In this document: piece after piece, positions 10,376-37,351 of the stretch | How positions within the stretch are numbered: the first letter of the stretch is position 1 | Layout of the letters: every line of letters begins with the position of its first letter | Virus record (IMG/VR): IMGVR_UViG_3300009431_000003 | Reading direction: 5' to 3' (one strand) | Length of the DNA stretch: 64,000 nt | Source: a virus | Position numbers and translations under genes: made by a program | Notes under the pieces: model-generated | The model's input: the letters and a program-made list of their open reading frames with translations, nothing else | What the model was told of the DNA's origin: nothing | Databases searched by the model: none

Positions 10376-10855
10376 TCAGCTTCTCCACTTTCCGCTTGAA
10401 GGCTTAGGAACTTCTACAATCCCATTAATTTCTTTATAATTACCCAAAAACTCATCACCTTTAGTAATGGGCTGTCTAGCCTTTAAAGACATACCCGAAC
10501 GCGTTTTATATGCTGATACGTTAGGGTGCTTAGCATGGTTAAGGTATCTACCGAGAATTGTCTTTTTAAAGTCCTTATCTACTGAGATGGGGCGCGTCAA
10601 TCGTTGCATTACTCGTCCAATATGCTCGCCTTTTGAATACTCTCTTGTGGCAAAAACACCTTTACCATGAACAATAGAAGGTTTTACGGCAATAGCCAGC
10701 TTACACATCTCAAGAGCAAAGGAAGTCATAGAAGCTGTCTTCTTGCGTTCTTTTTTCTTGTGCTGCTTATAGGCAATTCCCCAAGCCATGGATTCCGGCA
10801 TTTCGGGATTCTTAGCCTTTAAACGCTCAACTCTATCATGCACCCATTTAGGCAT
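10376..10855 (-). CDS. SET-domain protein (putative lysine methyltransferase)
   Basis: SIVHGKGVFATREYSKGE, RYLNHAKHPN and ARQPITKGDEFLGNY match SET motifs; N-terminal KTAS and FALEMCKLA motifs. Confidence 0.8.
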   Translation of the reverse strand: MPKWVHDRVERLKAKNPEMPESMAWGIAYKQHKKKERKKTASMTSFALEMCKLAIAVKPSIVHGKGVFATREYSKGEHIGRVMQRLTRPISVDKDFKKTILGRYLNHAKHPNVSAYKTRSGMSLKARQPITKGDEFLGNYKEINGIVEVPKPSSGKWRS

Positions 10856-10863
10856 GGACTATC

Positions 10864-11103
10864 TCATTTATTTGAAATTAATTCAGGAGTGACTGCCCCA
10901 CCTACTGCCCAGGGCAGAGCTTCCAGCCCAGCCGAGCCTAAACGAGCGTGTAAAGCTTTGTTTAGCGCACGAGACCTAACCAGAGCAGGAAGCATAGCCG
11001 CCCCGCCAAGAAGGCTACCTGTAACAAACCTGGCCGGCCAGCGGCTTTTTTTCTTCTCTTGTGCTATCTTTATAATTTCTAAGGCAAAAGAATTATTCAA
11101 CAT
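10864..11103 (-). CDS. Small motif-bearing hydrophobic protein
   Basis: SFALEIIKIAQ N-terminus; two Gly/Ala hydrophobic segments; co-oriented with the SET gene. Confidence 0.65.
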   Translation of the reverse strand: MLNNSFALEIIKIAQEKKKSRWPARFVTGSLLGGAAMLPALVRSRALNKALHARLGSAGLEALPWAVGGAVTPELISNK

Positions 11104-11139
11104 AATAAGTAAGTATATAATCAGAAAGGTGAAAGATCA

Positions 11140-11520
11140 ATGAAAAATGCAGCATTCCTTACTTTGAAACTTGCTCTAAAAGGAACAGTCAACAATACAG
11201 ATAATCTCATGGAGTTTGACTCTATAGATAATACCTCTTCTATATACTTCCCAATTGTTAAAGCTGAAAAAGATGATACAGGGTGGATTTTTTGGGGAGG
11301 AACAGAAAAAGGGCTATACTTAGTTGAGGCGGAAAGGGAAGATAACGACGTTATTTGCTGGGTGATTATATCCGATATAGTATTATATTTCATGTCTGAG
11401 TTTTTATTTGGGCAGTTTAGAATGGACGAAGACGGCAACATGAAAACCCGCAACCAATGCCGCGCTGAAGCAACAAAACAACTTCAAGAGCTTGGGTACA
11501 AATTACAAGAGAAAGAATAA
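11140..11520 (+). CDS. Hypothetical protein
   Basis: 126-aa ORF with RBS. Confidence 0.65.
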   Translation: MKNAAFLTLKLALKGTVNNTDNLMEFDSIDNTSSIYFPIVKAEKDDTGWIFWGGTEKGLYLVEAEREDNDVICWVIISDIVLYFMSEFLFGQFRMDEDGNMKTRNQCRAEATKQLQELGYKLQEKE

Positions 11521-11569
11521 TGAAGCATCTGTATTTACTTGCTCTCAATAATCATGTTAGGAGAAAAAT

Positions 11570-12304
11570 ATGTCTAAAAATTTTAGAAAAGTTGCTGTGG
11601 CCTCAGCAGTAATAGATCACTTAAGAAATTCCGGATTTGCCGAGGCTAGTGACTTACCGTGGCAAATCCGGAAAAAGATAACTACAATAATAAAAGACCA
11701 AGTAACTAAAGGGAAACTATTAGTCTACGACGACAAACATGGAAAAGATCCTACTTGGGGAGATATTAAAGTATCCTGCATGATTCCTTTGTCTGATGAT
11801 AAAGAGTTGTTCGCTATCCTTCGACCAACAAGATACCCTGCCGAGCATAACCAAGCGGCCTGGATCATTGTTACTGTTATTTCCTGGGAAGAAGCTGAAG
11901 CATATAATCCCACGGAATACGCAGACATTATTCAGGATGTTTATTCTCCAAAGAGTGCGTGGACATATAACTTTAAAGAAGTATTCGGAAATTTATCCCC
12001 GGAAGACTACAAAGAGGCAACGGGAGAAGCCACAACAAACCAAGAACTAAAACCTCCGGAAATTCCTATTACTACTATTTGGAAAGCAAGAGAATTGCTT
12101 CAAAGCAGTAAGATCGGAGATATTTCTCTCGATACTAAAGGTAAAAAGCTCTCTGGAGAGTTAACTGTTAACAGCGTCGTAGTTGATTTATCTGCCGACA
12201 CAGACGAAGAATTTCTACAAAAAATCAGGACAGCCCTCGATAACATATCGGCGCCCATTGAAGAAGCCAGAAGGCTTATCACAGAAGGAGAAGGAAATGA
12301 CTAA
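11570..12304 (+). CDS. Hypothetical protein
   Basis: 244-aa ORF, AGGAG RBS. Confidence 0.7.
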   Translation: MSKNFRKVAVASAVIDHLRNSGFAEASDLPWQIRKKITTIIKDQVTKGKLLVYDDKHGKDPTWGDIKVSCMIPLSDDKELFAILRPTRYPAEHNQAAWIIVTVISWEEAEAYNPTEYADIIQDVYSPKSAWTYNFKEVFGNLSPEDYKEATGEATTNQELKPPEIPITTIWKARELLQSSKIGDISLDTKGKKLSGELTVNSVVVDLSADTDEEFLQKIRTALDNISAPIEEARRLITEGEGND

Positions 12305-12668
12305 TTATCTAAATCATGTATTTGTTGTTATGCGGTCAGGAGAAGCTCAAGCGGCAACTGTTGAAGCTGTAACTATGCCTGGAATATCTCGAATAAAAGA
12401 CGTAAAAAATAAAATAATGCAGGCAGTAACTGCTTGGGTAAAGAACTATAACTCAGGACAAAAAGCTTGGGAGGGCTCCTCTGAGGATTACAATATCGGA
12501 GACCTATCAAACGATCTGAGTAACAAGTATCTGGAAACGGAATTGGAAGATCAAGGGATCATCGACTTATCTATAAGCTTAGATAGACTAGGGCAACGTG
12601 ATTGGGAATATGACGACATTCTTGTAATAAAAGATAGATTATATAACGTAGAGGATACAAACGTATGA
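12297..12668 (+). CDS. Hypothetical protein
   Basis: Start at MTNYLN after GGAGAAGGA. Confidence 0.65.
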   Translation: MTNYLNHVFVVMRSGEAQAATVEAVTMPGISRIKDVKNKIMQAVTAWVKNYNSGQKAWEGSSEDYNIGDLSNDLSNKYLETELEDQGIIDLSISLDRLGQRDWEYDDILVIKDRLYNVEDTNV

Positions 12669-13156
12669 AAACAATGCATGGGGTTGTGACTTTAGTCTTT
12701 AATATGGACCAGATCACTAAAGGCGAGAGCCGAGACCAATTCAACGAAGCAATTCACCAAATAAATGTAGATCTACAGCGCCAGCCTTACGGCCTGGGCG
12801 CGCAACTCTACGTAGCCGAGGATCAAAAAGAAATGGGCTTCCTTATCGAGAATAATACTGTTACTTGTGACGAATGCGGTGCTGAGACCCAAATTGATGG
12901 AGAGTATGTAGGCGCTTACTTTGACGTATGGGACGAGAAAGAACCAACATATCATTATGAGTGCTGTTCAAAGAAGTGCGAAAACAAGCTACTGGAAAAC
13001 ACCGAATACTGTCCTATCTGTAAAAGAGAGTTACATGAATTACAAGAACATCCAAAGCACCCGCCTCGTGGACTTTCAATGGTACAGGTGGAGGGGCATG
13101 AAAGCTTAATCTGCCGGCGTTGCGCTGAGAAAGAAGGGTGGAAGTATGTGCCATGA
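12665..13156 (+). CDS. Cys-rich hypothetical protein
   Basis: CDEC, CCSKKC, CPIC, CRRC. Confidence 0.65.
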   Translation: MKTMHGVVTLVFNMDQITKGESRDQFNEAIHQINVDLQRQPYGLGAQLYVAEDQKEMGFLIENNTVTCDECGAETQIDGEYVGAYFDVWDEKEPTYHYECCSKKCENKLLENTEYCPICKRELHELQEHPKHPPRGLSMVQVEGHESLICRRCAEKEGWKYVP

Positions 13157-13195
13157 TAAGTCTGCATCGTGTCTACCTTATGAGGGTCCGCCTAA

Positions 13196-13513
13196 GTGGT
13201 ACCAGCGATGATAACAAGGACAAAAACCCCTCCGGAGATTCAGGCAATGATTAATAAAGTTGACGCTAACATCCGTAAGGCAACCAAAAAATATGTTGGC
13301 AAACCTTCTTGGAGAGCATCACTCCGATACCGAATTATCGTATGGTGCCGAGCAATTCAACAATGGTGGTTTCTACGCCAACAAAAGACAGTGCTAAATT
13401 GTCCTTTTCCAAGACTACGATGGAACAGTGTCAGCCAATTCTTTACTCTCCTGCACCCAATTACTTACAATAAGATCGAGCTAACAGTAAGCAGTAAAGA
13501 AAAGGAAAATTAA
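13196..13513 (+). CDS. Hypothetical protein
   Basis: 105-aa ORF; start uncertain. Confidence 0.45.
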   Translation: MVPAMITRTKTPPEIQAMINKVDANIRKATKKYVGKPSWRASLRYRIIVWCRAIQQWWFLRQQKTVLNCPFPRLRWNSVSQFFTLLHPITYNKIELTVSSKEKEN

Positions 13514-13609
13514 ATGAAACTACATGTAACCGCCGGGGTGCCCTTCCCACCAGACGCCGTAACACAGACCTTTGGGTTTAATCGAGGAGCTACACAAAGA
13601 ATTATTTGA
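13514..13609 (+). pseudogene. Possible truncated remnant of a HerA/DUF87-like ATPase
   Basis: Reads MKLHVTAGVPFPPDAVTQTFG then diverges and stops; resembles the pre-Walker-A N-terminus of phage HerA-like ATPases (from memory). Confidence 0.35.
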
Positions 13610-13624
13610 TTAAAGGAGAAATAA

Positions 13625-13873
13625 ATGAACTACAATTTAATGAGAGAACATATAGGACATAAGATAGTTTGTGTCTGTTATGGAAAAACTGGAGAAGACC
13701 CAGACAATATAGCAATCGAATGCGAAACTTGCGGGGAAGTACTAATTGACGCTTGTGCTGGAGATTACTGGGCAAAATACCTTGCTGAAGAACAAACGAT
13801 AACTAATGGAGCTTTACCTTTACCGCAGTGGGAGCACTACGCACCCTTTCAACAGAACAAATACAAAAACTGA
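13625..13873 (+). CDS. Hypothetical protein
   Basis: AAGGAG RBS; HIGHKIVCVCYG...IECETC. Confidence 0.7.
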   Translation: MNYNLMREHIGHKIVCVCYGKTGEDPDNIAIECETCGEVLIDACAGDYWAKYLAEEQTITNGALPLPQWEHYAPFQQNKYKN

Positions 13874-14083
13874 AAGACGCCCCATGCTATACCCTTCAAG
13901 ACAAGCCTCGAAAGTTCTCTGCCGGAAAAATAACTAGTCTTAGCCAACCTATGGTTATACTTAAAACTGAAAAAGAAAAAATTGCTCAGCACTTGCAGCT
14001 AATTTTGTCTGCCGCCAATAACCTTAAAACAGAGGGAGAACATCGAGGGCGGTATTGATGCAATAACTGAAATAATAGAAAAA

Positions 14084-14347
14084 ATGACGGCTAATTATCA
14101 GCTTGAGAAGTACCAGCTTACCAAAAAGGCGGAGACTTACCAAGCTGATTGGGCGGCTGAGAAACATAAATTTGGCACTATTTTAGCGGGCCTAAAAGAG
14201 AAAAACAAACAACTGGAGAGTCACTTCAAAAATATACAGAAAACAGCGCAAGACGGATATAAAGACGATGCACTTTCTTACGTTGATGATATCTGCACAC
14301 TTATAGATATGTCAGACAAAAAGAACCCAATAAAGGAAAGCGAATGA
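14084..14347 (+). CDS. Hypothetical protein
   Basis: 87-aa coiled-coil-like ORF. Confidence 0.55.
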   Translation: MTANYQLEKYQLTKKAETYQADWAAEKHKFGTILAGLKEKNKQLESHFKNIQKTAQDGYKDDALSYVDDICTLIDMSDKKNPIKESE

Positions 14348-14595
14348 AGTATATTAAGACTACTTGGGACGATAGAAAAGCAGCAGAAAAACGCGAGCAT
14401 AAGAGTACTTGCCGCAATTCAAAACAAGCCGGGAAAAGCTCATACTGGATCACATGCCCGTTTTGTGACAAAGAGGTCATTGCTTATGTATGGTCAATAG
14501 CTGGTGGAGGAAAGCGGTGTCCCAACTGCGGAGCCATGCACTCGTACTATGGAACATCACATAGGAAGAAGAATCCTAGGAAGGAGGGGCAATGA
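14344..14595 (+). CDS. Zn-ribbon hypothetical protein
   Basis: CPFC...CPNC; ATGA overlap. Confidence 0.7.
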   Translation: MKYIKTTWDDRKAAEKREHKSTCRNSKQAGKSSYWITCPFCDKEVIAYVWSIAGGGKRCPNCGAMHSYYGTSHRKKNPRKEGQ

Positions 14596-14894
14596 AGGCA
14601 GTAAGATCAGTGTCACTAACTAGAAAGAACGACCCGTCAGAAAAAGAGACTCAACTTATGCTCTATTTATCAGAAGAGGACGCAAATGCTCTATACGAAC
14701 TCGGTACAGAAGCTATAGCTAAAGGCTGCGGACTCTCTTTTGATATTTACAACAATGACATTCTCCTGTGTAAATACTCTTACGCTCCGGGAGATATTGG
14801 TGAGGTCATTTTGGGAATGCAACAAGAAAAATTTGCTGGCAGGCAACATAGTCTTGGGTCTCATGGCCTTCTTAAAGGAAATGAAGGTGATTAG
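14592..14894 (+). CDS. Hypothetical protein
   Basis: AGGAGG RBS, ATGA overlap. Confidence 0.65.
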   Translation: MKAVRSVSLTRKNDPSEKETQLMLYLSEEDANALYELGTEAIAKGCGLSFDIYNNDILLCKYSYAPGDIGEVILGMQQEKFAGRQHSLGSHGLLKGNEGD

Positions 14895-15063
14895 TATAAT
14901 GGAAAATCAAGGAATGAGCCCCAAAGAAATGATTGGACGTAAAGTTCGAGACAAAAAAAAACAGCAAGTTAGGGCGGCTATCCCCATAAATTATCTATAT
15001 TTTTGGGGCTTCTTGTTGGTGCCGTGGATACTGTAAATGGAATAATAAAATAAGGGAGACAAT

Positions 15064-15264
15064 ATGTGCCGGAATTGTAATTGGGAAGAATACTTGGATA
15101 AAATTGAGCTTTTACTGGACGACGAGGAATATGAGTTTGCTTCAAACACTCTCCAAGGAATCAAAGATTGGATAACTGGAGAAGGCGCCAGAGAGCCTAG
15201 AAACCATATCACGCCTAAACAGCAGCAAGCCATAGAAAATATAGAAAACAGCACCAATTATTAA
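15064..15264 (+). CDS. Hypothetical protein
   Basis: 66-aa ORF, GGGAG RBS. Confidence 0.65.
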   Translation: MCRNCNWEEYLDKIELLLDDEEYEFASNTLQGIKDWITGEGAREPRNHITPKQQQAIENIENSTNY

Positions 15265-15278
15265 ATCGGTATTTCCCA

Positions 15279-15288
15279 CATAAGAACA
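15279..15288 (+). promoter_or_regulatory. CATAAGAACA motif (putative phage promoter)
   Basis: ATTTCCCACATAAGAACAAT, intergenic. Confidence 0.5.
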
Positions 15289-15325
15289 ATAACAAAAGCA
15301 ATATTTTTAACAAAAAGGGGGAGTT

Positions 15326-15475
15326 ATGGAAAAATGGCCACTTATTTTAATCGGCGCGGTTGCTATTATCGCTGCTTGTCGGCAAGCACATAAACACAAC
15401 ACTATCAGAAAATTTAATGAACATCCGGAAATGTATCTCCTCAAGGCTCTGTTGGAGGACTCCAAATGTCAGTAA
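15326..15475 (+). CDS. Small membrane/lipoprotein-like peptide (49 aa)
   Basis: MEKWPLILIGAVAIIAAC...; GGGGAG RBS; below the ORF-track cutoff. Confidence 0.5.
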   Translation: MEKWPLILIGAVAIIAACRQAHKHNTIRKFNEHPEMYLLKALLEDSKCQ

Positions 15476-15936
15476 TTTATTTGTCCTTGGATACTCCAAT
15501 CAATACCTTAAGAAAATATGGCTTTTCTTATCTTACTGGAGAAGCCTGCGGCGTTGCGCATCGAGGTTTATTCGATTTGGATGAAAAAGCAAAAAAAGTA
15601 TGGGAAACAATGACCAGAACTTCTTTAACAAGTAAGTGCTGGAATACAGGAGTTGGTTCTATAATTATTCCTAATGCCTGGGTCAAAGATATCGCTGTCT
15701 GGTGTCTTCTTGTTACTGACAAGTGTCATGTTGTAGCAGAAATGGTAGACAAGCGAGGGCCTTTGAGCCTAATAGGATTAAATAAGGACACCTCAAATAT
15801 TGAAAAAGTAATCCAAGAAACTTATTCTTCAGCACTAAAAAGAGGAGCAGTAAGCATATCTCGGTACTACAAAATTTCTTCTAATCCTGGTACAGGATTA
15901 GATAATACCCACCAAATGACTCAACGAACAAATTAG
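15466..15936 (+). CDS. Hypothetical protein
   Basis: 156-aa ORF, GGAGG RBS. Confidence 0.7.
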   Translation: MSVIYLSLDTPINTLRKYGFSYLTGEACGVAHRGLFDLDEKAKKVWETMTRTSLTSKCWNTGVGSIIIPNAWVKDIAVWCLLVTDKCHVVAEMVDKRGPLSLIGLNKDTSNIEKVIQETYSSALKRGAVSISRYYKISSNPGTGLDNTHQMTQRTN

Positions 15937-15951
15937 GTAAGGAGTAAGAAA

Positions 15952-16206
15952 ATGACGAGAAGAGAAGGACGGATTCACGCTTTATGTGTCGAGTTTGGTA
16001 GACCAGACCTCTGGCAAATACTCAAAAAAAAAATAGACGGGGACAGATTAGTTGCCGGCTATACCACAGCTACAGGAAGGGACATCGCAGAGGCTATTGT
16101 TAAAAAAGTAGAAATATCCAATAAGCTGAAAATGAAAAACTTGGATGATGCTCTTTATTTAGCCACCAACGCCAAAAAGTTTGTGAAAATCACAACTGCA
16201 CAATAA
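15952..16206 (+). CDS. Hypothetical protein
   Basis: AAGGAG RBS. Confidence 0.65.
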   Translation: MTRREGRIHALCVEFGRPDLWQILKKKIDGDRLVAGYTTATGRDIAEAIVKKVEISNKLKMKNLDDALYLATNAKKFVKITTAQ

Positions 16207-16218
16207 ACCGATCACATA

Positions 16219-16246
16219 AAAGAAGAGGGCCTTCCCTCTTCTTTTC
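16219..16246 (+). terminator. Intrinsic terminator
   Basis: AAAGAAGAGGG-CCTT-CCCTCTTCTTT hairpin with T tail. Confidence 0.7.
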
Positions 16247-16261
16247 TATAAGGACAGATAA

Positions 16262-16920
16262 ATGCAGAAAGCATATTTAAGTATCGACCTTGACTTTTGG
16301 TTTATGCAAGACGCCCAATAAAAAGAGTAAAACAATTGACTAGTCTTCTTGGTAAGCTCAAGCAAGCACAAATTCCTACAACTATAACCATGAATCATAA
16401 GCACCTTACTAAAGAAATTAATCAACTCTCTGACGAAGTACGAACCCTTGTCAACATGGACTACCACTCCGACATTACAAACAAGAAAAACAATATTCCT
16501 TTTAATGAAGGTACCTGGGTTAATTTCATAAAATGGAAAGGAGAAGGGACATATATCTGGATTAGGCCCCTCGCTAAGCTAGCAAAGCCTCAAAGCAGCG
16601 GGAGAGTAGATAGAACTAATCTACGGTTTGGAAAAGCTTTAGCTAAAAAAGCAGGATGGAAATCCATTCGCTCCCGCCTGCTATATTTACCTAAAAATTT
16701 CACTTTTGTCGGCGCAGGTATTAGCATCAGTCCTCGTTGGGTTAATAAACCAATTCTTATTTATACTCTTCTTCAGTGTATTCTTGGGCATCCAATATCT
16801 CTTCGGGACATAGGAAAAGACAGCGAGCCAATTTCCTGTCTCGATGCTGTAGGTGGAGATATTACGCAACCATTAAACAGTACGCTAAAAGCTGAAGAGC
16901 TTGATGGCCTCCGCATTTAG
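16262..16920 (+). pseudogene. UPF0489-like (DLDFW...NxDxHSD) protein, frameshifted
   Basis: MQKAYLSIDLDFW starts at 16262 after RBS; continues only in the -1 frame (..NHKHL..VNMDYHSD..NEGTW) from ~16301. Confidence 0.55.
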
Positions 16921-16942
16921 AGTAATAACCTTTAATTTCTCC

Positions 16943-16952
16943 CATAAGAATA
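16943..16952 (+). promoter_or_regulatory. CATAAGAATA motif (putative phage promoter)
   Basis: ATTTCTCCCATAAGAATAAT, intergenic. Confidence 0.5.
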
Positions 16953-16983
16953 ATAGAGAAAACATTAACAAAGGAGAGAAATT

Positions 16984-17772: not shown

Positions 17773-17777
17773 CAAAT

Positions 17778-17803
17778 AAAGAAGAGCTTCCTGCTCTTCT
17801 TTT
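17778..17803 (+). terminator. Intrinsic terminator
   Basis: AAAGAAGAGC-TTCCT-GCTCTTCTTT hairpin. Confidence 0.65.
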
Positions 17804-17821
17804 ACTTAAGGAGAAAATCAC

Positions 17822-20949: not shown

Positions 20950-21675
20950 TTAAACTTTAAGTTTCTTCTTTCTTATATAATCTACGAGCCTAAATATTGC
21001 ATCCTCTTTTATTGTTGGTTTTGCAAAACGTAAACCAGCAACGCCAGCACTAATAGCGTTTGGAAGCACAGGCTCTATCAGCCTCAAAGAAGAGGGTAAG
21101 CCTGCCGCTCTAAGTGTTCGATATCCTTTTATCGAAGCTACTGCTTCTTCCGGTACCTGTAATAAGTTACCAAGCCCTTTAACTGCTATTGTAGGTCTTT
21201 TTAATCTTTGCGCTACTTCTTTAGCGTCATTGGTTGTTGCTTTTATTCTTTGTTCTCGCAGGTGAGGAAATAATCGTTCTTTCCATGTAGGCTTTTTATA
21301 TCGTGCAATTCCTCCTCGAATCAAATAATTCAAGCTCCCTATAGCAGGTGGTATGCGTGATGCTGGAGCGTGGCCAATGTTCTGCAGTATATTTCCTGCT
21401 GTATAACTTCCTTTGGTAATTTTATTTATCAAAGACTTATTTTTCCAAGTATTTGCATGGCCTAGTTCATGAGCAATAACCATAGGATCATTTACAGCTT
21501 TACTCCCTAAAAATATTTTATTTTTAGAGGGTAAAAATGCCCCCCGGATACCAGGTATATCTTTTTTTATAAAAGAGATATCTTTCACTCCCGCTGTTTG
21601 GGTAAGTTTTTGCGTCAAAGGCGTATTTATTTCCTGGCCTAATTTAATCATTTCTTGGGAAAAAGCTATATTCAT
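20950..21675 (-). CDS. HExxH zinc-metallopeptidase-like protein with N-terminal motif
   Basis: VIAHELGHA plus downstream PEEAVAS; N-terminus AFSQEMIKLG; GGAGG RBS. Confidence 0.65.
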   Translation of the reverse strand: MNIAFSQEMIKLGQEINTPLTQKLTQTAGVKDISFIKKDIPGIRGAFLPSKNKIFLGSKAVNDPMVIAHELGHANTWKNKSLINKITKGSYTAGNILQNIGHAPASRIPPAIGSLNYLIRGGIARYKKPTWKERLFPHLREQRIKATTNDAKEVAQRLKRPTIAVKGLGNLLQVPEEAVASIKGYRTLRAAGLPSSLRLIEPVLPNAISAGVAGLRFAKPTIKEDAIFRLVDYIRKKKLKV

Positions 21676-21986
21676 TTAAGTATCCTCCAGGTATTTGGGA
21701 GTATTCTACAGCAAGTAAATACATATGTCTAAAATTAAGCTCATGCTGACAAAAAAAAAGAGACTTTTATGAAAAAGGGAAAACTTATGTAAAAACTGAT
21801 CTGTGGTATTAATTTGCCTCATCAAGTGGTTGCGGGGATGTATTCTTAAAAACCCTCGATGCTGCTCATGATAGGCAGCTTCTACAGATACCGGGCATCG
21901 GTCCTGTCTATTTGTCCAGGCCATACTAAGACCGCCAGAGCTAATCAATTCCAAGGAAAGCCATCCGAGATTCATAAGGAGGAAAT

Positions 21987-28486: not shown

Positions 28487-28494
28487 GAGAGATA

Positions 28495-30253: not shown

Positions 30254-30364
30254 CTTGATGACTGCTTTTTCAATCGTAAAGAGGCTTGTGTCGGTCTGGG
30301 AAATAGAACCTCAGACACTTGTTATTTTTTTTTTGCGTCAACTATTTCAAAGGAGAAGATAATA

Positions 30365-31276: not shown

Positions 31277-31285
31277 GAGATTCTA

Positions 31286-31864
31286 ATGAAATATTATATA
31301 GTACAAGCAGATAGATCATCCCAACCAGGGAGAGACAGTACCTTGGTTGAGGAGGTTCGGGCAGTTAGCCCGGAAAGGGCTGCAGAAAGTGTATTCAAGA
31401 GACTCAGGGACCCTAACCTCGTAGACAAGATATGGTCTCCCTATGATACCCTAATTCGTGTAATCCCTTCGGATGCTGTATTTCTTGGAGACAAGCACCT
31501 GATTTCCGAGTTTGATGAGAAATGGTGCTTGGAGATTATCGAGGAAATTGCTCAAGAATATCCTGAGGAATCAAAGATACCGGATATTGAGTGCGTTGGA
31601 AAGGTCCAATATACTCACGAATATACTCACCTAGAAAAGTTTACGCTTAATTGTAAGAGCGGTATTCTATTTATTGGGTCCAATATAAAAAGGGGTCAGG
31701 TGGCCATCCGTTTTATTATGGACAATAAACCGGATGTATTTTTTGGTATTTCTACAGCAGATGGGCTTGAGCAGTTTCAGCAATTTGTTGAGGGTTTATA
31801 TCACAGGTTGTTGCCACTTCTTCCGATACACAAAGAGGGTCCTATTGATGAAAATATCGACTGA
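31286..31864 (+). CDS. Hypothetical protein
   Basis: AGGAG RBS. Confidence 0.7.
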   Translation: MKYYIVQADRSSQPGRDSTLVEEVRAVSPERAAESVFKRLRDPNLVDKIWSPYDTLIRVIPSDAVFLGDKHLISEFDEKWCLEIIEEIAQEYPEESKIPDIECVGKVQYTHEYTHLEKFTLNCKSGILFIGSNIKRGQVAIRFIMDNKPDVFFGISTADGLEQFQQFVEGLYHRLLPLLPIHKEGPIDENID

Positions 31865-32183
31865 GGAGCAAGCTACTGGGTGTTTTGGAGCCGATGGGTA
31901 TCGAGAATACGCTAAAAAGAAGGGGTATAAATATATTGACGTATGGAACTGGTCTAGCAGCATTAGAAGGAGCATTATAATGCCAAAAATAAAGTTTTAT
32001 AAAGAACCTACAGGTGATTATTGCTGCGTTTTCTGGCCAAAGATAGCAGGGTTTCCGTATTTTGAGGGCAGAGCTGTTGTAATTACTAATCTGCCTACTT
32101 CTGTAGCTACTACAGGAATCAGTCAAATCTTTTTGCGTAAATGCAAAAAGTACCAAGAGAAAATGTACCAAAAGAGTGGCTAG
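31848..32183 (+). CDS. Probable in-frame fusion of a gene remnant and a gene starting at 31980
   Basis: Internal AGAAGGAG RBS plus ATG at 31980 (MPKIKF) in frame with MKISTEE...WNWSSS. Confidence 0.5.
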   Translation: MKISTEEQATGCFGADGYREYAKKKGYKYIDVWNWSSSIRRSIIMPKIKFYKEPTGDYCCVFWPKIAGFPYFEGRAVVITNLPTSVATTGISQIFLRKCKKYQEKMYQKSG

Positions 32184-32207
32184 AAGAATTGGAATAAGGA
32201 GGACATT

Positions 32208-32414
32208 ATGGGAAAGCTTTTATTGTGGGCATGGGGAGCATATGCCTTGATTTGGGTTGCAGTATTTTTGAGCGCTTATTTTGATTTCTTCTCATTTATG
32301 GATGATTGGAGAGGAAGACGAGTAGCTCATCATTTGCCGCCATATTTCTCATGGAAGTATCTTATCTGGTCCGCTCCTGTCCTTTTAGCCGGCCTTGCAA
32401 GTATATCTTCTTAA
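32208..32414 (+). CDS. Small two-TM membrane protein
   Basis: AGGAGG RBS; two hydrophobic segments. Confidence 0.7.
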   Translation: MGKLLLWAWGAYALIWVAVFLSAYFDFFSFMDDWRGRRVAHHLPPYFSWKYLIWSAPVLLAGLASISS

Positions 32415-32496
32415 TCGTCTGTCTCAAAAATTTGCAAAGTGAGATAGCTTATGATACCTTTAAAAACAAGTTATGTGAAAATAATGAGTATTTTCA

Positions 32497-32506
32497 CATA
32501 AGAGGA
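32497..32506 (+). promoter_or_regulatory. CATAAGAGGA motif (putative phage promoter)
   Basis: ATTTTCACATAAGAGGAGTG just upstream of the RNA cluster. Confidence 0.45.
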
Positions 32507-32565
32507 GTGATCAAGAACTTTCCTTTTAGGAGGAAAGGCATGACCTTCTTGATCTACTTGTCACA

Positions 32566-32743
32566 AGTTTAAGTTGGAAAGTTGGCTTAGAGGCAGCCAT
32601 CTTTTAAAGAGTGAATCGCCTCGATCTCAATCATCGTGACCGATGGATACTTTCTGTAATGTGTCAGGTCCTTGACTTAGGAAAGTATCGGGATCGCCAA
32701 GGACAGGTGGATTCTTTGGCGTAGTAGCACACCAACTTAAACT
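32566..32743 (+). ncRNA. Putative structured ncRNA (178 nt)
   Basis: 12-bp terminal stem AGTTTAAGTTGG/CCAACTTAAACT enclosing five helices and a possible pseudoknot. Confidence 0.55.
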
Positions 32744-32884
32744 ATTTTAAGAGGAGAAACTTATGTGTTTTAAAATGGATCAGTGCAGAAGAGAAATGGA
32801 GGAATCTCTCGCACTACACGACCATGATGATTGGATTCGTTATGGAAAGTTATCTCCTCAGCAGAAACATGCAAAGACAGTTTT

Positions 32885-33221
32885 GGGCATGGTTTTGGAT
32901 TCGACAGAGGAGCTTGAGAGCGACTCCAGCAAGCCAGGGAGCATCCGGCCCTGTAAAAAGATGCACATTTTTAATTGCCGAACCGCAATTAGCTAACGCT
33001 GCGTAGAGCAGCGCGTTGTACCGGCTGACTCCGATACGTCGGCTACAGCGTTACATATCGGATAGTCTTGATGGCTGATCGTATCAAGGGAATTCCAGAT
33101 CACCAACTCTCTGAGTATCCTGTCCATGGGAGACAATGAAGAGTATAAAACATGGACTAAGCTTGTAGACGGACCGTAAACACTTTTCTGGACTGGGGTT
33201 CGACTCCCCACATGTCCACCA
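32885..33221 (+). ncRNA. ssrA: tmRNA
   Basis: 5' GGGCATG..GGATTCGAC; 3' GGGGTTCGACTCCCC-ACATGTCC-ACCA; G3-U70 pair; tag AEPQLANAA* at 32977-33006. Confidence 0.92.
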
Positions 33222-33226
33222 ATTAT

Positions 33227-33394
33227 GGCGAGGTAGTTCAAGTAGGAACGTCTAATGTATAGAAGAACCTGGAATATTTTATACATTGTCCTCCTCAAGA
33301 ATTAGGAGAGATCTTCTGCAGAGAGAACTCGATAATAAAAACAGAATACTGGGCTTGCTGCTCAGAGATGCTGGTTCAAATCCGGTCCTCGCTG
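33227..33394 (+). ncRNA. tRNA-like RNA with ~110-nt insertion in place of the anticodon arm
   Basis: Acceptor GGCGAGG/CCTCGCT, D-arm GTTC..GAAC, T-arm GCTGG-TTCAAAT-CCGGT; no CCA. Confidence 0.6.
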
Positions 33395-33542
33395 TATTAT
33401 TTTGAAAACAGTATGCAACTGCCCGGAATAGGTAGTTGTCGTTGGCAGCCGGCCCGAGGGGGGCCTTCCAAGATACTTAGTCCCACAACCCCTCTCGGGC
33501 CGCGTTTAATTTTGTTGTTATATTTTTTATTAAGGAGAAGCT

Positions 33543-34316
33543 ATGAAAGAGAATCAGTTACATGTCCTCCTTGCTGTTGAAGGAGACTTGCAGGGACAAG
33601 CAAAAAGAGTAATAAAGGAAGCGTATGATACCTTTAAGTCCAAGCTGCATCTGTTCGATGGGCTGGATAAGGTTCTTCATATGTTTGATGAAAAGCGGCA
33701 ACAAGAAGAATCTGCCGGCAGGCAACACAGTGACGTTGCCACAACAGTCGAGGATAAGTTAAGATATATCAAAGGAGCAGTCGGCAACTATTGGGACGCT
33801 GTCCTCCAAAAGGAAAACGCAAATCAGGATGCCCAGGCTGATTTGGTAATCGACGGAAAGACGATCGCCCCTGGGTTACCCGCCACATTCCTTCTTGGAA
33901 TGGAAAGCAAGGTAAAAGCCTTGAGAGAAGTTTTCGAGGCTATTCCGACCAGGGATCCGAATATCTCTTGGATCGCCGCAGACGACATCGGTCCTGGTGT
34001 GTTCAAGTCTGTCGTGCCGATTGATAGAACCAAGACTGAGACTATCGTTGAGCCGGTTGTGTTGTATCACGCAACCAAGGACCACCCCGCACAGGTCAAA
34101 GAGGGATCAAAGGTAGTAACCATCGGCAAAACTTCCGAAACAAAGTATACCTCTCGCTGGACTCCTCTTCAGAAGAGCAATGCTTTGGCTCGGGTAGATA
34201 AATTAATCCGTTCTTTGAAGAAGGCGCGGCAAAAAGCCAACCAAACAGAGATTAAAGATGCTCATATAGCCAATGACATCTTTAAATACCTTCTGGAAGG
34301 CAAATTGCCGGGATAA
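33543..34316 (+). CDS. Unknown-function helical protein between two tRNA mimics
   Basis: 257 aa, AAGGAG RBS; N-terminal QLHVLLAVE resembles a widespread phage family of unknown function. Confidence 0.8.
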   Translation: MKENQLHVLLAVEGDLQGQAKRVIKEAYDTFKSKLHLFDGLDKVLHMFDEKRQQEESAGRQHSDVATTVEDKLRYIKGAVGNYWDAVLQKENANQDAQADLVIDGKTIAPGLPATFLLGMESKVKALREVFEAIPTRDPNISWIAADDIGPGVFKSVVPIDRTKTETIVEPVVLYHATKDHPAQVKEGSKVVTIGKTSETKYTSRWTPLQKSNALARVDKLIRSLKKARQKANQTEIKDAHIANDIFKYLLEGKLPG

Positions 34317-34491
34317 GAATACAAGGTAGGTGTAACCTTGTTGTTGGTGTCATAGAATACTGGGTACAGTCCGAGGCGGGAGCCCATGAAAGACGATGCC
34401 CTATATTCGGAATTGATGTCTGCTGTTAAAGTTTTGCACCTACAGCTTCATCGCAACTCAATGTCAAGCGATGCACAATGCTCAAAATTAC

Positions 34492-34562
34492 ATCCTGGTC
34501 GGAGGTTCAAATCCTCCCTCGTTCTCCATTATGAACGAGTAGCTCAGCGGTAGAGCAAGGGT
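34492..34562 (+). ncRNA. Circularly permuted tRNA-like module (3' half precedes 5' half)
   Basis: ATCCT-GGTC-GGAGG TTCAAAT CCTCC-CTCGTTC-T-CCA, TTAT spacer, then GAACGAG-TA-GCTC AGCGGTA GAGC-A-AGGGT; acceptor and anticodon stems pair across the halves. Confidence 0.75.
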
Positions 34563-34611
34563 TTTCAAACTGAAGCAATGTGGTTTATGCAGAGACAGAA
34601 GAGGCAACCCC

Positions 34612-34689
34612 GATTTTATGGCTCAATTGGATAGAGCTGCGGACTATAAAATCCGTGAGTTACGGGTTCAACTCCCGTTAAGATCACCA
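34612..34689 (+). tRNA. tRNA with 8-nt anticodon loop (CTATAAAA); identity uncertain
   Basis: Acceptor GATTTTA/TAAGATC, D-arm GCTC..GAGC, anticodon stem GCGGA/TCCGT, T-arm ACGGG-TTCAACT-CCCGT, encoded CCA. Confidence 0.75.
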
Positions 34690-34726
34690 GGGGGCCAGGT
34701 GAGGATACATCCTGGCCCCCACTTTT
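34690..34726 (+). terminator. Intrinsic terminator
   Basis: GGGGGCCAGG...CCTGGCCCCC followed by ACTTTT. Confidence 0.65.
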
Positions 34727-34745
34727 AGGCTTACAAGGAGTACTT

Positions 34746-35003
34746 TTGAATAAACCAGTATTGAAGATGCTGGCATTGATTGTTATGCTTGATACGTACG
34801 AGTTAATATACGATCACTTGCCGGAAAATAAACGAAACCTAACGACAGAAGAAGGAATGCAGATCGACAAAGAAAGTATGCCTTCAGTTAATTATCTACG
34901 AGATAAAGGGCTTATCAAAACTAAACACATTAAAAATAATAACTATATCTGTACAATAACCCCTAAAGGCTGGAAAGCCTTTGGGAGGGAAATGGCAAAA
35001 TGA
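34746..35003 (+). CDS. Small winged-helix-like hypothetical protein
   Basis: TTG start after AAGGAG; LRDKGLI...ITPKG pattern. Confidence 0.5.
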   Translation: MNKPVLKMLALIVMLDTYELIYDHLPENKRNLTTEEGMQIDKESMPSVNYLRDKGLIKTKHIKNNNYICTITPKGWKAFGREMAK

Positions 35004-35110
35004 AAATTTTACGGCAGCTTTTAAAAGTCCTTTGCCAGGGAAGGTCATTGGGTCCATGCTGAGAAGCGGCGCATAACAGAGTAGGTTTTCCAATGAATTT
35101 TTAAAGATAA

Positions 35111-35272
35111 GAAGGGAGGGGATGGAGGTCCAGGCGCCCTAGAAAAATCCTTCCGTAAACCTACGGTCCTATGGTGGAAATGGAGCTATACCCATAGGAA
35201 GCGTAAAAGGGAGTGACGACTCTCCGATATTTTTAAGTTAGGCGACGCAGGTAGCCTTGGCTCCAGACCTGC
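35111..35272 (+). ncRNA. Putative structured ncRNA with kissing loops
   Basis: Four or five hairpins; loop TGGAGCTA (35181-35188) complementary to loop TGGCTCCA (35258-35265). Confidence 0.5.
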
Positions 35273-35276
35273 TTAT

Positions 35277-35352
35277 GGGGGATTAGCTCAGTTGGAAGAG
35301 CGTGGCGCTTGCATCGCCGAGGTCATCGGTTCGATCCCGATATCTTCCACCA
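35277..35352 (+). tRNA. tRNA-Ala (TGC)
   Basis: Canonical 76-nt cloverleaf, loop CT-TGC-AT, G3-U70, encoded CCA. Confidence 0.93.
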
Positions 35353-35374
35353 ACAAAGAAGAGACGGAATGTTA

Positions 35375-35384
35375 CATAAGAGTA
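35375..35384 (+). promoter_or_regulatory. CATAAGAGTA motif (putative phage promoter)
   Basis: ATGTTACATAAGAGTACTGG, intergenic. Confidence 0.5.
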
Positions 35385-35442
35385 CTGGTAGGCAATTTAT
35401 TTTATAAGTTGTCTTTTTTTTTATTACACAACGGAGGATGAT

Positions 35443-35628
35443 ATGGACAAAGAAAAAATGAGGGACATTGTGTACATGACTACGCTAGTAACTGGTGTAG
35501 TCACTATAATTGGAGGACTGGCACTGAAAGCTTTGGAAGGAGATAATGAAAAAATCATTAAATCGGCAATGGATACCGTTCTTAATCTCGGAAAGGAGAT
35601 TATCACTCAAGACGATACTCTTGATTAG
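35443..35628 (+). CDS. Small membrane protein
   Basis: GGAGG RBS; one TM segment. Confidence 0.65.
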   Translation: MDKEKMRDIVYMTTLVTGVVTIIGGLALKALEGDNEKIIKSAMDTVLNLGKEIITQDDTLD

Positions 35629-35647
35629 AAACTAAAAGGGGGCGATT

Positions 35648-36199
35648 GTGGTTACTATCAAAGTTTATTCTGGAAGAAATTTCAGAATCATTGCACTGCT
35701 GCTCGACATAGCAACAGACGAGGAGTACCCACACATACTTCCAAAATTAGGCGAGCGCCTTAAAAAAGATATAGGAAAAAGGGGATTTATTCTTAGCCCT
35801 GAAGATATTGTCTTCGCTGTACATAACACAGGACAAAGGCAACTCAGTGATGGGCGAGTGTACCAAATCCGGTATCTTTGGGTTGCCCGGGAAGGTTCTT
35901 TAACAGCAACTGATTGGGATGAGTTGGTATATGATCAGTTTATTGTAAAAAATACTACCATCTCTCCTTTTGCCAAGCTAGAGATGGCCAGAGAACTTCC
36001 TACATTACAAAGAACAAGAGAGGACCTATTAACTCTTGTGGTTAAACGCCAGGAACATTTATGGTATTTAGTAGGAAAGAAGGGCTGGAGGATCGAACGA
36101 TTAAATCAGGTATCCAGTATACGTTTACGGGTGGATATGTTACAGCCTCCAGCTGTTAAAGTTCGTAGAGGCCCGCCTAAAATGGCTGAGGACAAGTGA
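35648..36199 (+). CDS. Hypothetical protein
   Basis: 183-aa ORF, GTG start with purine-rich RBS. Confidence 0.65.
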   Translation: MVTIKVYSGRNFRIIALLLDIATDEEYPHILPKLGERLKKDIGKRGFILSPEDIVFAVHNTGQRQLSDGRVYQIRYLWVAREGSLTATDWDELVYDQFIVKNTTISPFAKLEMARELPTLQRTREDLLTLVVKRQEHLWYLVGKKGWRIERLNQVSSIRLRVDMLQPPAVKVRRGPPKMAEDK

Positions 36200-36206
36200 A
36201 ACTAGG

Positions 36207-36236
36207 AGAGAGGGGATAAAACCCCTCTCTTTTTTA
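36207..36236. terminator. Terminator between convergent genes
   Basis: AGAGAGGGG-ATAAAA-CCCCTCTCT with T run. Confidence 0.7.
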
Positions 36237-36237
36237 T

Positions 36238-37125
36238 CTAATAATCAAAGTAGTCCACAATATATCGGCCACCGTTCCATTGAGAAGGTAAAGGGTTACC
36301 GGTGCCCCATGTTTGTGTTCCTTTTTCTCCGTCACGCAAACCAAGATGTTTTACAGCCCAAAGGCCCACATCCTGCCATAATCGAGAACCGGGATCAGCA
36401 ACTCTATTTTTGCTGCTCTGTCTATGAGCAAAAATAGAGTGAACGGGAGCTTTTTGTGTTTCTTTGATTTTGTCACAAGCCCATGGAAGAAATTGTCTCA
36501 GGGCCTTAATTTGAGCAGATGAAGCTACATGAGGGCCTCCCCCAGATGACCAATGAGTTCTAAGGTCGCCCTCAATCCCGCACATATTTCCGGAAACCTC
36601 GATTCCTACAGTGTGGTGTGATAATCCCTGGGCATGCCAAATAAAATCGAAGAAATCATTCAAGAGATATATCTCACCTTCGCGAGTAACGCCAACATGG
36701 GCGTTTACCGTCCTCCAGCGACGGTAACCACTTTTAATTAAGCAACCGGTTTGGTGGAGAGTAAATCCATCAATACTCATCGGAGACCTGCCCGGACGGT
36801 AATTCTTTGGATGGTCAAGCCCTCGAAAATCATGAATCACAAACTTTTCCGCACTGAGAGGTTCGACTATTTCGGTTTTGACATTGCCAGAGTACTCCAG
36901 GCCCTCAATGGCGCCTTCAATAGTTTGTAGAGTAATGTCTCCCACAACACCATCATCCTGGAGTCCGTGATCCCTCTGAAACGCTCTGACAGCCTCAAAG
37001 GTATCATTTCCGTACCAGCCATCCGCCTCAAACCCTCCGAGAGAGTACCCAAGAACCAGAAGCCATTCCTGTATCCTTTTTACCGCAGGGCCGTGCATTA
37101 TAGGTGAGACTAATTTTAGTAACAT
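36238..37125 (-). CDS. Endolysin: peptidoglycan-binding domain plus N-acetylmuramoyl-L-alanine amidase
   Basis: DGWYGNDT..AVRAFQRDHGLQDDGVVGDIT (PG_binding_1); LHQT, AHVG, WHAQ, GIEVSG, AHRQ...DPG (Amidase_2-like). Confidence 0.88.
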   Translation of the reverse strand: MLLKLVSPIMHGPAVKRIQEWLLVLGYSLGGFEADGWYGNDTFEAVRAFQRDHGLQDDGVVGDITLQTIEGAIEGLEYSGNVKTEIVEPLSAEKFVIHDFRGLDHPKNYRPGRSPMSIDGFTLHQTGCLIKSGYRRWRTVNAHVGVTREGEIYLLNDFFDFIWHAQGLSHHTVGIEVSGNMCGIEGDLRTHWSSGGGPHVASSAQIKALRQFLPWACDKIKETQKAPVHSIFAHRQSSKNRVADPGSRLWQDVGLWAVKHLGLRDGEKGTQTWGTGNPLPSQWNGGRYIVDYFDY

Positions 37126-37135
37126 AGTGCTCTCC

Positions 37136-37351
37136 TTATATATTTGTATTTTTACGTTGTTGTTTGTTTCTATTAAGTGTGGCGGGAGTCGGAATTTTTA
37201 CCTTGGGGAGCCCGGCAAATCTCTTGCCTGTAGAAAAGGCCAGAGAGACTTGGGGCATTCCAGGAGTAGGTACTTGCGGCGCCATAGGCCCGGAAGTAGC
37301 TGCCATCTTTCTTAGTTCATCAGCGAAAGCTATAAGCTCAAGACTTTTCAT
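37136..37351 (-). CDS. Small motif-bearing protein
   Basis: N-terminus IAFADELRKMAA. Confidence 0.6.
   Translation of the reverse strand: MKSLELIAFADELRKMAATSGPMAPQVPTPGMPQVSLAFSTGKRFAGLPKVKIPTPATLNRNKQQRKNTNI

What the first reader, a model, noticed from the sequence alone, without database searches (positions are those of the whole stretch)
10376..37351. Orphan minus-strand genes share an N-terminal F-x-x-E-x-x-K-[ILM]-[AG] tag: possible virion cargo-loading system
Seen: four minus-strand genes outside the structural operon carry nearly the same motif: SFALEMCKLA (SET protein, 10376-10855), SFALEIIKIA (10864-11103), AFSQEMIKLG (HExxH protein, 20950-21675) and AFADELRKMA (37136-37351). A similar MTDELNKIA occurs in the scaffold-like gene 62410-63087. 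The downstream cargo differs completely in each. Known: T4 internal proteins use a short N-terminal capsid-targeting sequence removed by the prohead protease, and phiKZ-like phages process many head proteins at a short motif. Inference: a portable tag that recruits diverse enzymes into the head for injection. Their late-strand orientation inside early regions fits this.
Basis: partly seen in the sequence, partly recalled or inferred. Interest (0 to 1): 0.8.

Follow-up and report, generated by a model that had tools for sequence, protein, structure and literature searches.

The report
Portable head-loading tag on phage proteins
Four unrelated genes of this large uncultured phage start with the same short peptide; hundreds of unrelated proteins in related phages carry it too, and it most likely addresses them to the virus head, though no experiment has shown this.

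Summary
F-x-x-E-x-x-K-[ILM]-[AG] occurs four times in the six-frame translation, only in the four named minus-strand ORFs (0.12-0.15 expected). A scoring matrix built only from related phages ranks these four sites and the scaffold copy as five of the six window hits above 8 bits.

All five large contigs tested encode this phage's capsid protein type. 207 tagged proteins fall into 163 unrelated clusters, including SNF2 helicase, NUDIX, GNAT, amidase and HExxH peptidase.

The head-loading reading is partly supported:
- scaffold-like proteins carry the motif internally;
- the tag ends in a hydrophobic-x-Lys-x-Ala motif, enriched in the window's structural proteins (17 against 5 expected) and flanking a protease-like head protein;
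- tagged helicases are homologues of a helicase detected in Salmonella phage Arash virions.

Packaging, cleavage, injection and late timing are untested. One tag (SET protein) sits at residue 46, after a conserved leader. First readers of this scan noted the same ELEKIA tag on other DNA. I found no publication describing it.

The parts
10376..10855 (-). SET-domain protein, 159 aa. It has a conserved 31-aa N-terminal module (10763-10855), a basic linker, the tag FALEMCKLA (10694-10720), and then the SET domain straight after the tag.
   Evidence: PF00856, 33.9 bits against a 22.4 cut-off; PSSM 10.2 bits; the N-module recurs in 7 relatives' proteins; in four of the seven an ELEKIA-type or variant tag follows a basic linker.
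10864..11103 (-). 79-aa Gly/Ala-rich small protein with the N-terminal tag FALEIIKIA (11062-11088). It lies 8 nt upstream of the SET gene, so the two tagged genes form a pair.
   Evidence: 19.6 bits. It has the same build as small tagged proteins of relatives. No Shine-Dalgarno sequence was seen.
20950..21675 (-). 241-aa HExxH (HELGH) protein with the N-terminal tag FSQEMIKLG (21637-21663). It is a lone minus-strand gene with a good ribosome-binding site.
   Evidence: The ESM Atlas model resembles Zn_peptidase_2/M48 over residues 16-220, so the tag lies outside the fold. There are no sequence homologues.
37136..37351 (-). 71-aa Pro-rich basic protein with the N-terminal tag FADELRKMA (37301-37327), directly upstream of the endolysin.
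   Evidence: 18.6 bits. It resembles in build, but not significantly in sequence, the small tagged protein that sits between scaffold and capsid genes in relatives.
62410..63087 (-). Acidic scaffold-like protein, 225 aa, with an internal copy of the motif, MAHSMTDELNKIA (62635-62661).
   Evidence: 26.4 bits, the top hit in the window. The homologous internal motif aG+xMAHxYxDEhxKVA is conserved in scaffold-like proteins of relatives.
63100..64000 (-). C-terminal part of a conserved 520-560-aa head-module protein, cut by the window end. In relatives its N-terminal 44-270 domain is protease-like and is bracketed by invariant LEKIA and LMKVA.
   Evidence: invariant K41/A43, K268-V269-A270, K463/A465; homologue Arash gp222, a virion protein; phage G gp19; nearest named Atlas clusters are S77/S78/S80, a lead only.
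58893..60011 (-). Major capsid protein. Its N-terminal leader ends in K24-V25-A26 (59934-59942), which is E-K-L-A in relatives.
   Evidence: (phrog_2522).
36238..37125 (-). Endolysin (PG_binding_1 + Amidase_2). It is given as context for the 71-aa tagged gene and is the last gene of a minus-strand block running from 38465 to 36238.

Best explanation
The motif is this phage's version of a clade-wide address tag of about 12-15 residues (h-x-h-x-[A/S/G]-F-x-D-E-L-E-K-I-A). It probably forms a short amphipathic helix. It copies a motif that the phage's own scaffold-like proteins carry internally, so a tagged protein co-assembles with the scaffold inside the procapsid. The tag ends in hydrophobic-x-Lys-x-Ala, the motif that also ends the capsid protein's N-terminal leader and brackets the protease-like domain of the neighbouring head protein. 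The head maturation protease would therefore clip the tag after Ala and leave the cargo in the head, to enter the host with the DNA. In this window the cargo is a SET-type methyltransferase, a zinc metallopeptidase-like protein, a Gly/Ala-rich peptide and a Pro-rich basic peptide. What is shown: the tag exists, it is N-terminal, modular and specific to this phage clade, and it shares its core with head-assembly proteins. What is inferred: docking to the scaffold, cleavage after Ala, residence in the virion, injection, and late expression.
For: 1. Reality: 4 hits against 0.12-0.15 expected, and an independent PSSM recovers just these sites.
2. Clade-wide N-terminal tag: 34 of 34 hits in capsid-centred loci lie on the capsid strand, 4-14 aa after an ATG. 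In 596 Gb of cellular genomes only 11 of 58 copies are N-terminal (Fisher 1e-8). One checked example is PhoU, and one lies in a MAG that carries the clade's capsid gene.
3. Linkage to one capsid type: 5 of 5 large tag-bearing contigs encode a capsid protein 55-61% identical to the window's.
4. Modularity: 207 cargos fall into 163 clusters. Pfam domains (NUDIX, ResIII/SNF2, Zn_peptidase_2) begin about 20 residues in, straight after the tag.
5. Head link: the motif is conserved inside scaffold-like proteins. In the window's structural genes h-x-K-x-A occurs 17 times against 5.0 +/- 2.3 expected, while plus-strand genes have 5 against 5.9. Invariant K-[IV]-A motifs bracket a protease-like domain. 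The capsid protein's leader ends in K-[LVI]-A in all relatives.
6. Experimental anchor: tagged SNF2 helicases from four contigs are homologues (to E 1.75e-80) of Arash gp217, which was found in Arash virion preparations with 38 unique peptides and 1148 spectra (PMC10585845).
Against: No member of the tag-bearing clade is cultured, so no virion proteome or N-terminal mapping exists. The protease is not identified: Pfam S77 and S78 gave no hit in five related genomes, hhalign against T4 gp21 gave probability 0.3%, and the AF2 model was too poor for fold search. Only an ESM Atlas feature lead and a similar His-to-Ser spacing seen by eye point to a protease. Arash gp217 lacks this tag, and the Arash authors themselves allow carry-over of abundant enzymes. 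In complete relatives many tagged genes lie 30-100 kb from the capsid gene. No shared late promoter was found in the window. Two of the four window genes have weak or no ribosome-binding sites. The window's tags diverge from the consensus, lacking Asp at +2 and Glu at +5.
Confidence: 0.55

Rival explanations
1. The peptide is a docking tag, but for another phage-built assembly or compartment rather than the capsid interior. Candidates are the tail or baseplate lumen, or a replication or transcription compartment. The scaffold-like carriers would then be organisers of that structure.
For: In complete relatives tagged genes are scattered 3-100 kb from the capsid gene. Cargos include helicase, NUDIX and GNAT enzymes, which could act inside the infected cell. 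By an earlier unchecked note, the genome also encodes its own RNA polymerase subunits and a tubulin-like protein.
Against: The strongest copies sit in acidic scaffold-like genes next to the capsid gene. In capsid-centred loci tagged genes are dense, up to 7 in 21 kb. The tag's end matches the motif at the capsid protein's leader. The helicase homologue was detected in Arash virion preparations.
Confidence: 0.15
2. The peptide is mainly a protease-recognised propeptide or regulatory leader. It would keep enzymes inactive, or mark them for timed cleavage or degradation, and would have no role in sorting.
For: The tag ends in the K-x-A motif shared with putative processing sites. In one relative the HExxH motif begins 7 residues after the tag, so a leader could occlude the active site. 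In SET-module proteins the motif is internal, as expected of a cleavage site.
Against: Conservation extends about 8-10 residues upstream of K-x-A (the F-x-D-E-L part and hydrophobic positions at -3 and -5), more than a cut site needs. Variants keep F-x-D-E-L and K-x-A-G but move them two residues apart, which suggests two separate functions. Many cargos are tiny non-enzymatic peptides.
Confidence: 0.15
3. The resemblance is due to chance, or the four genes are diverged paralogues that keep only their N-termini.
For: The motif is short. Cellular genomes contain chance look-alikes such as PhoU.
Against: Expected count is 0.12-0.15 against 4 observed. An independent PSSM recovers the sites. Cargos have different folds, SET against zincin-like. 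The same tag sits on 163 unrelated clusters.
Confidence: 0.02

Closest known systems
Phage T4 capsid targeting sequence (CTS) of internal proteins IPI-III and Alt, removed by prohead protease gp21. This description is from established knowledge; reviews PMC9026906 and PMC9958956 were listed but not read.
   Same: A peptide of about 10 residues at the N-terminus of otherwise unrelated proteins, ending in the motif that also marks processing sites of capsid and scaffold proteins. The cargo is variable and includes host-modifying enzymes.
   Different: There is no sequence similarity (T4: MKTYQEFIAE). The putative cut is after Ala in h-x-K-x-A, not after Glu in L/I-x-E. No S77 protease was detectable. 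One copy here is internal, behind a conserved 31-aa module. Targeting and cleavage are proven in T4 and only inferred here.
phiKZ-like giant phages (SPN3US gp245, phiKZ gp175, family S80): many head and ejection proteins processed at a short motif (PMC5694885, PMC7411985, PMC10052503; listed, abstracts only)
   Same: Large phages that pack many proteins, including enzymes and RNA polymerase, and process them with a head protease at a simple consensus.
   Different: Those sites have Glu at P1, and the propeptides are long and dissimilar rather than one portable tag. This clade's capsid protein is not close to theirs; its best cultured match is Arash at 27% identity.
Herpesvirus assemblin (S21) maturation and release sites, (V/L/I)-x-Ala|Ser (from established knowledge)
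   Same: Ala at the putative P1 position. A protease domain bracketed by its own sites and fused to a scaffold-like C-terminal part, as in the 520-560-aa head protein.
   Different: No detectable sequence or fold match was obtained here. The residue after Ala is unconstrained, and Lys at P3 is the conserved feature.
Salmonella phage Arash, the only cultured distant relative found (OQ632216; PMC10585845)
   Same: The capsid protein (27% identity), the protease-like head protein (gp222, 36% identity) and the SNF2-like helicase (gp217, 38% identity) are shared. 116 proteins, including enzymes, were detected in its virion preparations.
   Different: It lacks the ELEKIA tag in its head region, and gp217 has no N-terminal extension. 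The held supplementary file 2, of which part 1 of 15 was read, is a gene-feature table with no peptide-level data.

Membership tests
T4-type capsid targeting sequence system | One short N-terminal peptide shared by otherwise unrelated proteins of one phage | tested here: met
   Three of the four window copies are within 10 residues of the start; the fourth is at residue 46.
T4-type capsid targeting sequence system | The tag ends in the head protease's cleavage motif, which also occurs at processing sites of capsid and scaffold proteins | tested here: inconclusive
   The tag ends in h-x-K-x-A. The motif is enriched in structural proteins (17 against 5.0), invariant at the capsid protein's leader and found around the protease-like domain. 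No cleavage has been measured.
T4-type capsid targeting sequence system | Sequence relationship to the T4 CTS and cleavage after Glu (L/I-x-E) | tested here: not met
   The consensus [ASG]-F-x-D-E-L-E-K-I-A ends in Ala and has no resemblance to the T4 CTS.
T4-type capsid targeting sequence system | Prohead protease of family S77 (gp21-like) | tested here: inconclusive
   PF03420 gave no hit in 5 related genomes, but the control genomes also gave none. hhalign of A1 against T4 gp21 gave probability 0.3%. The ESM Atlas's nearest named clusters are S77/S78/S80 at 0.90-0.91.
T4-type capsid targeting sequence system | The tag is sufficient to load a foreign protein into proheads, and the cargo is present in virions and injected | not testable with these tools
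   Indirect only: homologues of the tagged helicases are Arash gp217, detected in virion preparations.
phiKZ/SPN3US-type head protein processing (S80) | Cleavage motif with Glu at P1 (S/A/G-x-E) | tested here: not met
   The conserved end of the tag is K-[ILMV]-[AGS].
SET domain methyltransferase (PF00856), cargo of 10376-10855 | Pfam SET profile above its gathering score, with the NH..PN and G-x-E-h-x-x-x-Y motifs | tested here: met
   33.9 bits against a 22.4 cut-off (residues 90-141). RYLNHAKHPN and GDEFLGNY are seen in the sequence. Activity is untested.
Zn_peptidase_2 / M48-like zincin, cargo of 20950-21675 | HExxH motif plus the family profile or fold | tested here: inconclusive
   HELGH is present. 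There is no Pfam or PHROG hit. The Atlas model gives TM 0.62 to Zn_peptidase_2 clusters over residues 16-220. My own AF2 model failed, with pLDDT 34.

The most novel reading that the evidence does not exclude
The tag is a two-part address: an F-x-D-E-L docking element copied from the scaffold's own motif, plus an E-K-x-Ala cut site. Any gene that acquires about 12 codons is then packed into the head and delivered with the DNA. This uncultured clade of 130-200-kb phages would thus carry a fast-turning arsenal of injected host-modifying enzymes (SET methyltransferase, metallopeptidase, NUDIX, GNAT, SNF2 helicase), processed by a head protease that cuts after Ala rather than after Glu as in the T4 and phiKZ-type systems named above.
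Probability: 0.35. Interest if true: 0.8.

Novelty: new variant of a known kind. Interest (0 to 1): 0.6.

Why it matters
If the reading holds, a 9-residue pattern would let one list, from sequence alone, the proteins that a large and wholly uncultured phage clade carries into its hosts. In the loci fetched here that is already 163 cargo clusters, most of unknown function. It would add a second natural capsid-addressing system with a different sequence and a different putative protease specificity. That is useful for understanding early host takeover and as a tool for loading proteins into capsids. In this window it predicts that a SET-domain methyltransferase and a zinc peptidase-like protein are delivered at infection. 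That prediction is concrete and testable.

Tried and rejected
- Word-based homologue searches for the HExxH protein, the SET protein and the SET leader found only the query itself.
- The exhaustive HMMER search for the HExxH protein gave only a tandem-repeat artefact, P0005.
- The single-sequence AF2 model of the HExxH protein failed, with pLDDT 34.
- The AF2 model of the 561-aa head protein, made with 11 sequences, was poor (pLDDT 52.7). VIA gave no Z above 2.9. Foldseek against the viral library gave only a relative and phage G gp19.
- A PDB profile search and a Pfam scan of A1 were negative. Searches for S77 and S78 in five relatives were negative. hhalign against T4 gp21 was negative.
- Shared-promoter search: TANTTACTT lies upstream of three minus-strand units but occurs only 7 times against 3.5 expected; TAGAATAC occurs 4 times against 2.1. 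I rejected both as evidence.
- Arash has no ELEKIA tag in its head region. The part of its held supplementary file 2 that I read (part 1 of 15) is a gene-feature table with no peptide-level data.
- Full-text searches for the peptide strings and for related concepts found no description of this tag. This is a limited library, so absence is not proof.
- The Hyphomonas N-terminal look-alike is PhoU.
- The window's own contig was not found in viral contigs (exact pattern) or among the metagenome contigs matches to its capsid protein. The other roughly 118 kb of this genome could therefore not be scanned.


Full report
**1. The observation**

The strict pattern F-x-x-E-x-x-K-[ILM]-[AG] has exactly four hits in the six-frame translation of the 64-kb window, and all four lie in the named ORFs. 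I shuffled the residues within all 364 ORFs of 60 aa or more. This gave a mean of 0.12 hits and never more than 2 in 2000 trials. The analytic expectation is 0.15.

I then built a position-specific matrix from 32 motif copies found only in related phages, so it is independent of the window. Six sites in the six-frame window score 8 bits or more: the scaffold copy (26.4), the 79-aa ORF (19.6), the 71-aa ORF (18.6), the SET protein (10.2), and, tied at 8.4, the HExxH protein and one acidic scaffold stretch. No plus-strand ORF scores.

One correction is needed. In the SET protein the motif begins at residue 46, directly before the SET fold, and not at the N-terminus.

**2. The four genes**

- 10376-10855 is a SET-domain protein (PF00856, 33.9 bits).
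- 10864-11103, eight bases upstream of it, encodes a Gly/Ala-rich 79-aa protein.
- 20950-21675 encodes an HELGH protein with no sequence relative among 5.8 billion clustered or 1.84 billion representative proteins. The single extra hit is a tandem-repeat artefact. The ESM Atlas model of this protein resembles Zn_peptidase_2/M48 peptidases over residues 16-220, which leaves the tag outside the fold.
- 37136-37351 encodes a Pro-rich basic 71-aa protein directly upstream of an endolysin (PG_binding_1 + Amidase_2).

The last gene lies in a minus-strand block that runs from 38465 to 36238 and looks coding. The overlapping plus-strand ORFs look spurious. The four cargos share nothing once the tag is removed.

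**3. The tag across a phage clade**

Relatives were found through the major capsid protein (58893-60011, phrog_2522). They carry the motif repeatedly. In about 20-kb loci centred on the capsid gene there are 34 hits, all on the capsid strand and nearly all 4-14 residues after an ATG.

Among 101 distinct contexts:
- 66 have their first possible start within 20 residues upstream;
- position -1 is Ala, Ser or Gly in 91;
- positions -3 and -5 are hydrophobic;
- conservation stops abruptly after the final Ala;
- every synonymous codon is used.

The same pattern in 596 Gb of cellular genomes gave 58 distinct in-frame copies. Only 11 are N-terminal (Fisher 1e-8) and only 12 have a small residue at -1 (4e-19). 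One N-terminal example is PhoU, an unrelated look-alike. Another lies in a MAG that also carries the clade's capsid gene, so it is probably a binned phage.

I picked five tag-bearing contigs by size alone, and all five encode a capsid protein 55-61% identical to the window's. Three complete relatives (192, 202 and 185 kb) hold 7-8 matrix hits each, against 0-2 with a column-permuted matrix. Of these 22 hits, 21 are on the capsid strand.

**4. Modularity of the cargo**

Across the loci fetched, 207 distinct N-terminally tagged cargos of 60 aa or more fall into 163 BLASTP clusters. Those that Pfam recognises are:
- an SNF2/ResIII helicase;
- a GNAT plus glyoxalase fusion;
- a Zn_peptidase_2-like HExxH protein;
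- a C92/NlpC-P60 amidase;
- a NUDIX hydrolase.

For NUDIX, ResIII/SNF2 and Zn_peptidase_2 the recognised domain starts about 20 residues in, straight after the tag. Tagged genes often sit in tandem runs, as the 79-aa and SET genes do here.

**5. The link to the head**

- The best-scoring copy in the window is internal to the acidic scaffold-like protein. The same internal block, roughly aG+xMAHxYxDEhxKVA, is conserved in scaffold-like proteins of relatives.
- The tag ends in hydrophobic-x-Lys-x-Ala. In the window's structural genes this short motif occurs 17 times against 5.0 +/- 2.3 expected. In the plus-strand genes it occurs 5 times against 5.9.
- The capsid protein's N-terminal leader ends in K-[LVI]-A in the window and in every relative.
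- The gene cut by the window end (63100 to beyond 64000) is the C-terminal part of a conserved 520-560-aa head-module protein. In relatives this protein has three invariant K-[IV]-A motifs, and two of them bracket residues 44-270. That domain has homologues in Arash gp222 (a virion protein), phage G gp19 and cluster-C-like mycobacteriophages. The nearest named ESM Atlas clusters are prohead proteases S77, S78 and S80 at 0.90-0.91, which is a lead and no more. By eye, the invariant His143-Ser199 spacing (56 residues) matches T4 gp21 His85-Ser140. The profile tests were negative and the fold model was too poor to use.
- Tagged SNF2-like helicases from four contigs are clear homologues of Arash gp217 (27-38% identity, E down to 1.75e-80). 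In three of the four the alignment starts 6-8 residues after the tag; in the fourth it starts 250 residues in. Arash gp217 was detected in purified virions with 38 unique peptides and 1148 spectra. The authors allow that abundant enzymes may be carried over (PMC10585845).

**6. Extra anatomy**

The first 31 residues of the SET protein (MPKWVHDR...ESMAWGIAYKQ) form a conserved module that opens seven proteins in the relatives' loci. Four of these also have an ELEKIA-type or variant tag about 85-130 residues in, after a basic linker (L140, L151, L150, L141). The tag can therefore work from an internal position, as a docking-plus-cut element could.

Some copies keep F-x-D-E-L and K-x-A-G but place them two residues further apart, for example FFDELESIEKEAG and FVDELMKIKQAGE. 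This hints at two separable parts.

**7. The most likely mechanism and what is not shown**

The best-supported reading is a capsid-addressing tag that imitates the scaffold's own motif and ends in the maturation protease's site. It is functionally like the T4 capsid targeting sequence, but it differs in sequence and in the putative cut, which is after Ala.

Nothing here shows packaging, cleavage, injection or timing. I found no shared promoter. Two of the window genes have weak ribosome-binding sites. Outside this window the strand argument is weak, because about three quarters of the coding sequence in relative G001 lies on the capsid strand. In complete relatives many tagged genes lie 30-100 kb from the capsid gene.

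The rivals are a tag for another phage-built structure, and a pure propeptide or regulatory leader. Chance and paralogy are excluded.

**8. Novelty**

Full-text searches for the peptide strings and for capsid-targeting concepts found the T4, SPN3US and P1 literature but no description of this tag. Within this scan, first readers noted the same ELEKIA leader on other DNA, and follow-up agents proposed a Lys-x-Ala head-protease code in this genome and in related ones. I used those notes as leads and re-tested only the parts cited above. I classify the finding as a new variant of a known kind of system.

**9. Limits**

From the positions given, I infer that the window is the last 64 kb of a 182,587-bp contig. 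The remaining roughly 118 kb could not be scanned.

Noticed in passing
window 10763-10855 (-), residues 1-31 of the SET protein: A conserved N-terminal module (MPxWIHDRAxHIxAKNPxMxxSxAFAIATQQ) opens seven proteins in the relatives' loci. Four of them also carry an ELEKIA-type or variant tag after a basic linker. No Pfam family matches it and its function is unknown.
   Followed up: partly
window 32885-33221 (+), 34612-34689 (+), 35277-35352 (+): ARAGORN calls a tmRNA gene (tag peptide AEPQLANAA), an odd tRNA with a 4-base anticodon loop call, and a tRNA-Ala inside this phage region.
   Followed up: no
window 37894-37983 (-): A 29-codon ORF encodes a single hydrophobic helix (MKIKIYGVAAGVGIVTATVTAVALKLLFP). 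It lies just upstream of the 173-aa gene, in the minus-strand block that ends with the endolysin, and may be a holin-like or membrane peptide.
   Followed up: no
window 62202-62409: A 208-nt non-coding gap with a GC-rich hairpin lies where relatives have the small tagged Pro-rich gene between the scaffold and capsid genes. The window's 71-aa tagged gene beside the endolysin may be its displaced counterpart. This rests on similar build only; BLAST similarity is not significant.
   Followed up: partly
window 11107-11115, 21713-21721, 38501-38509 (-): TANTTACTT lies upstream of all three isolated minus-strand units, but occurs only 7 times in the window against 3.5 expected. It is not significant as a promoter signal.
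   Followed up: yes
L041:766-2928, and L042, L050, L105: A tagged SNF2-like helicase recurs on four contigs and is homologous to Arash gp217. In Arash this gene lies beside an RNA polymerase subunit gene, and both proteins were detected in virion preparations.
   Followed up: partly
G001 157364, G004 15188, G005 149822; L150, L141: A variant tag has two extra residues between the F-x-D-E-L part and the K-x-A-G part, for example FFDELESIEKEAG.
   Followed up: partly
L004:5918-7600 and alignment A1: The conserved head protein has a Cys-rich insert (CxxC...C, DVCTxCGxxSRxxxDYCxHL) inside its protease-like domain, possibly a zinc ribbon.
   Followed up: no
window 58815-58892 (-): A perfect GC-rich hairpin (GGTGAGGGTTTCGACCCTCACC) follows the capsid gene. 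It looks like a terminator or attenuator within the structural operon.
   Followed up: no
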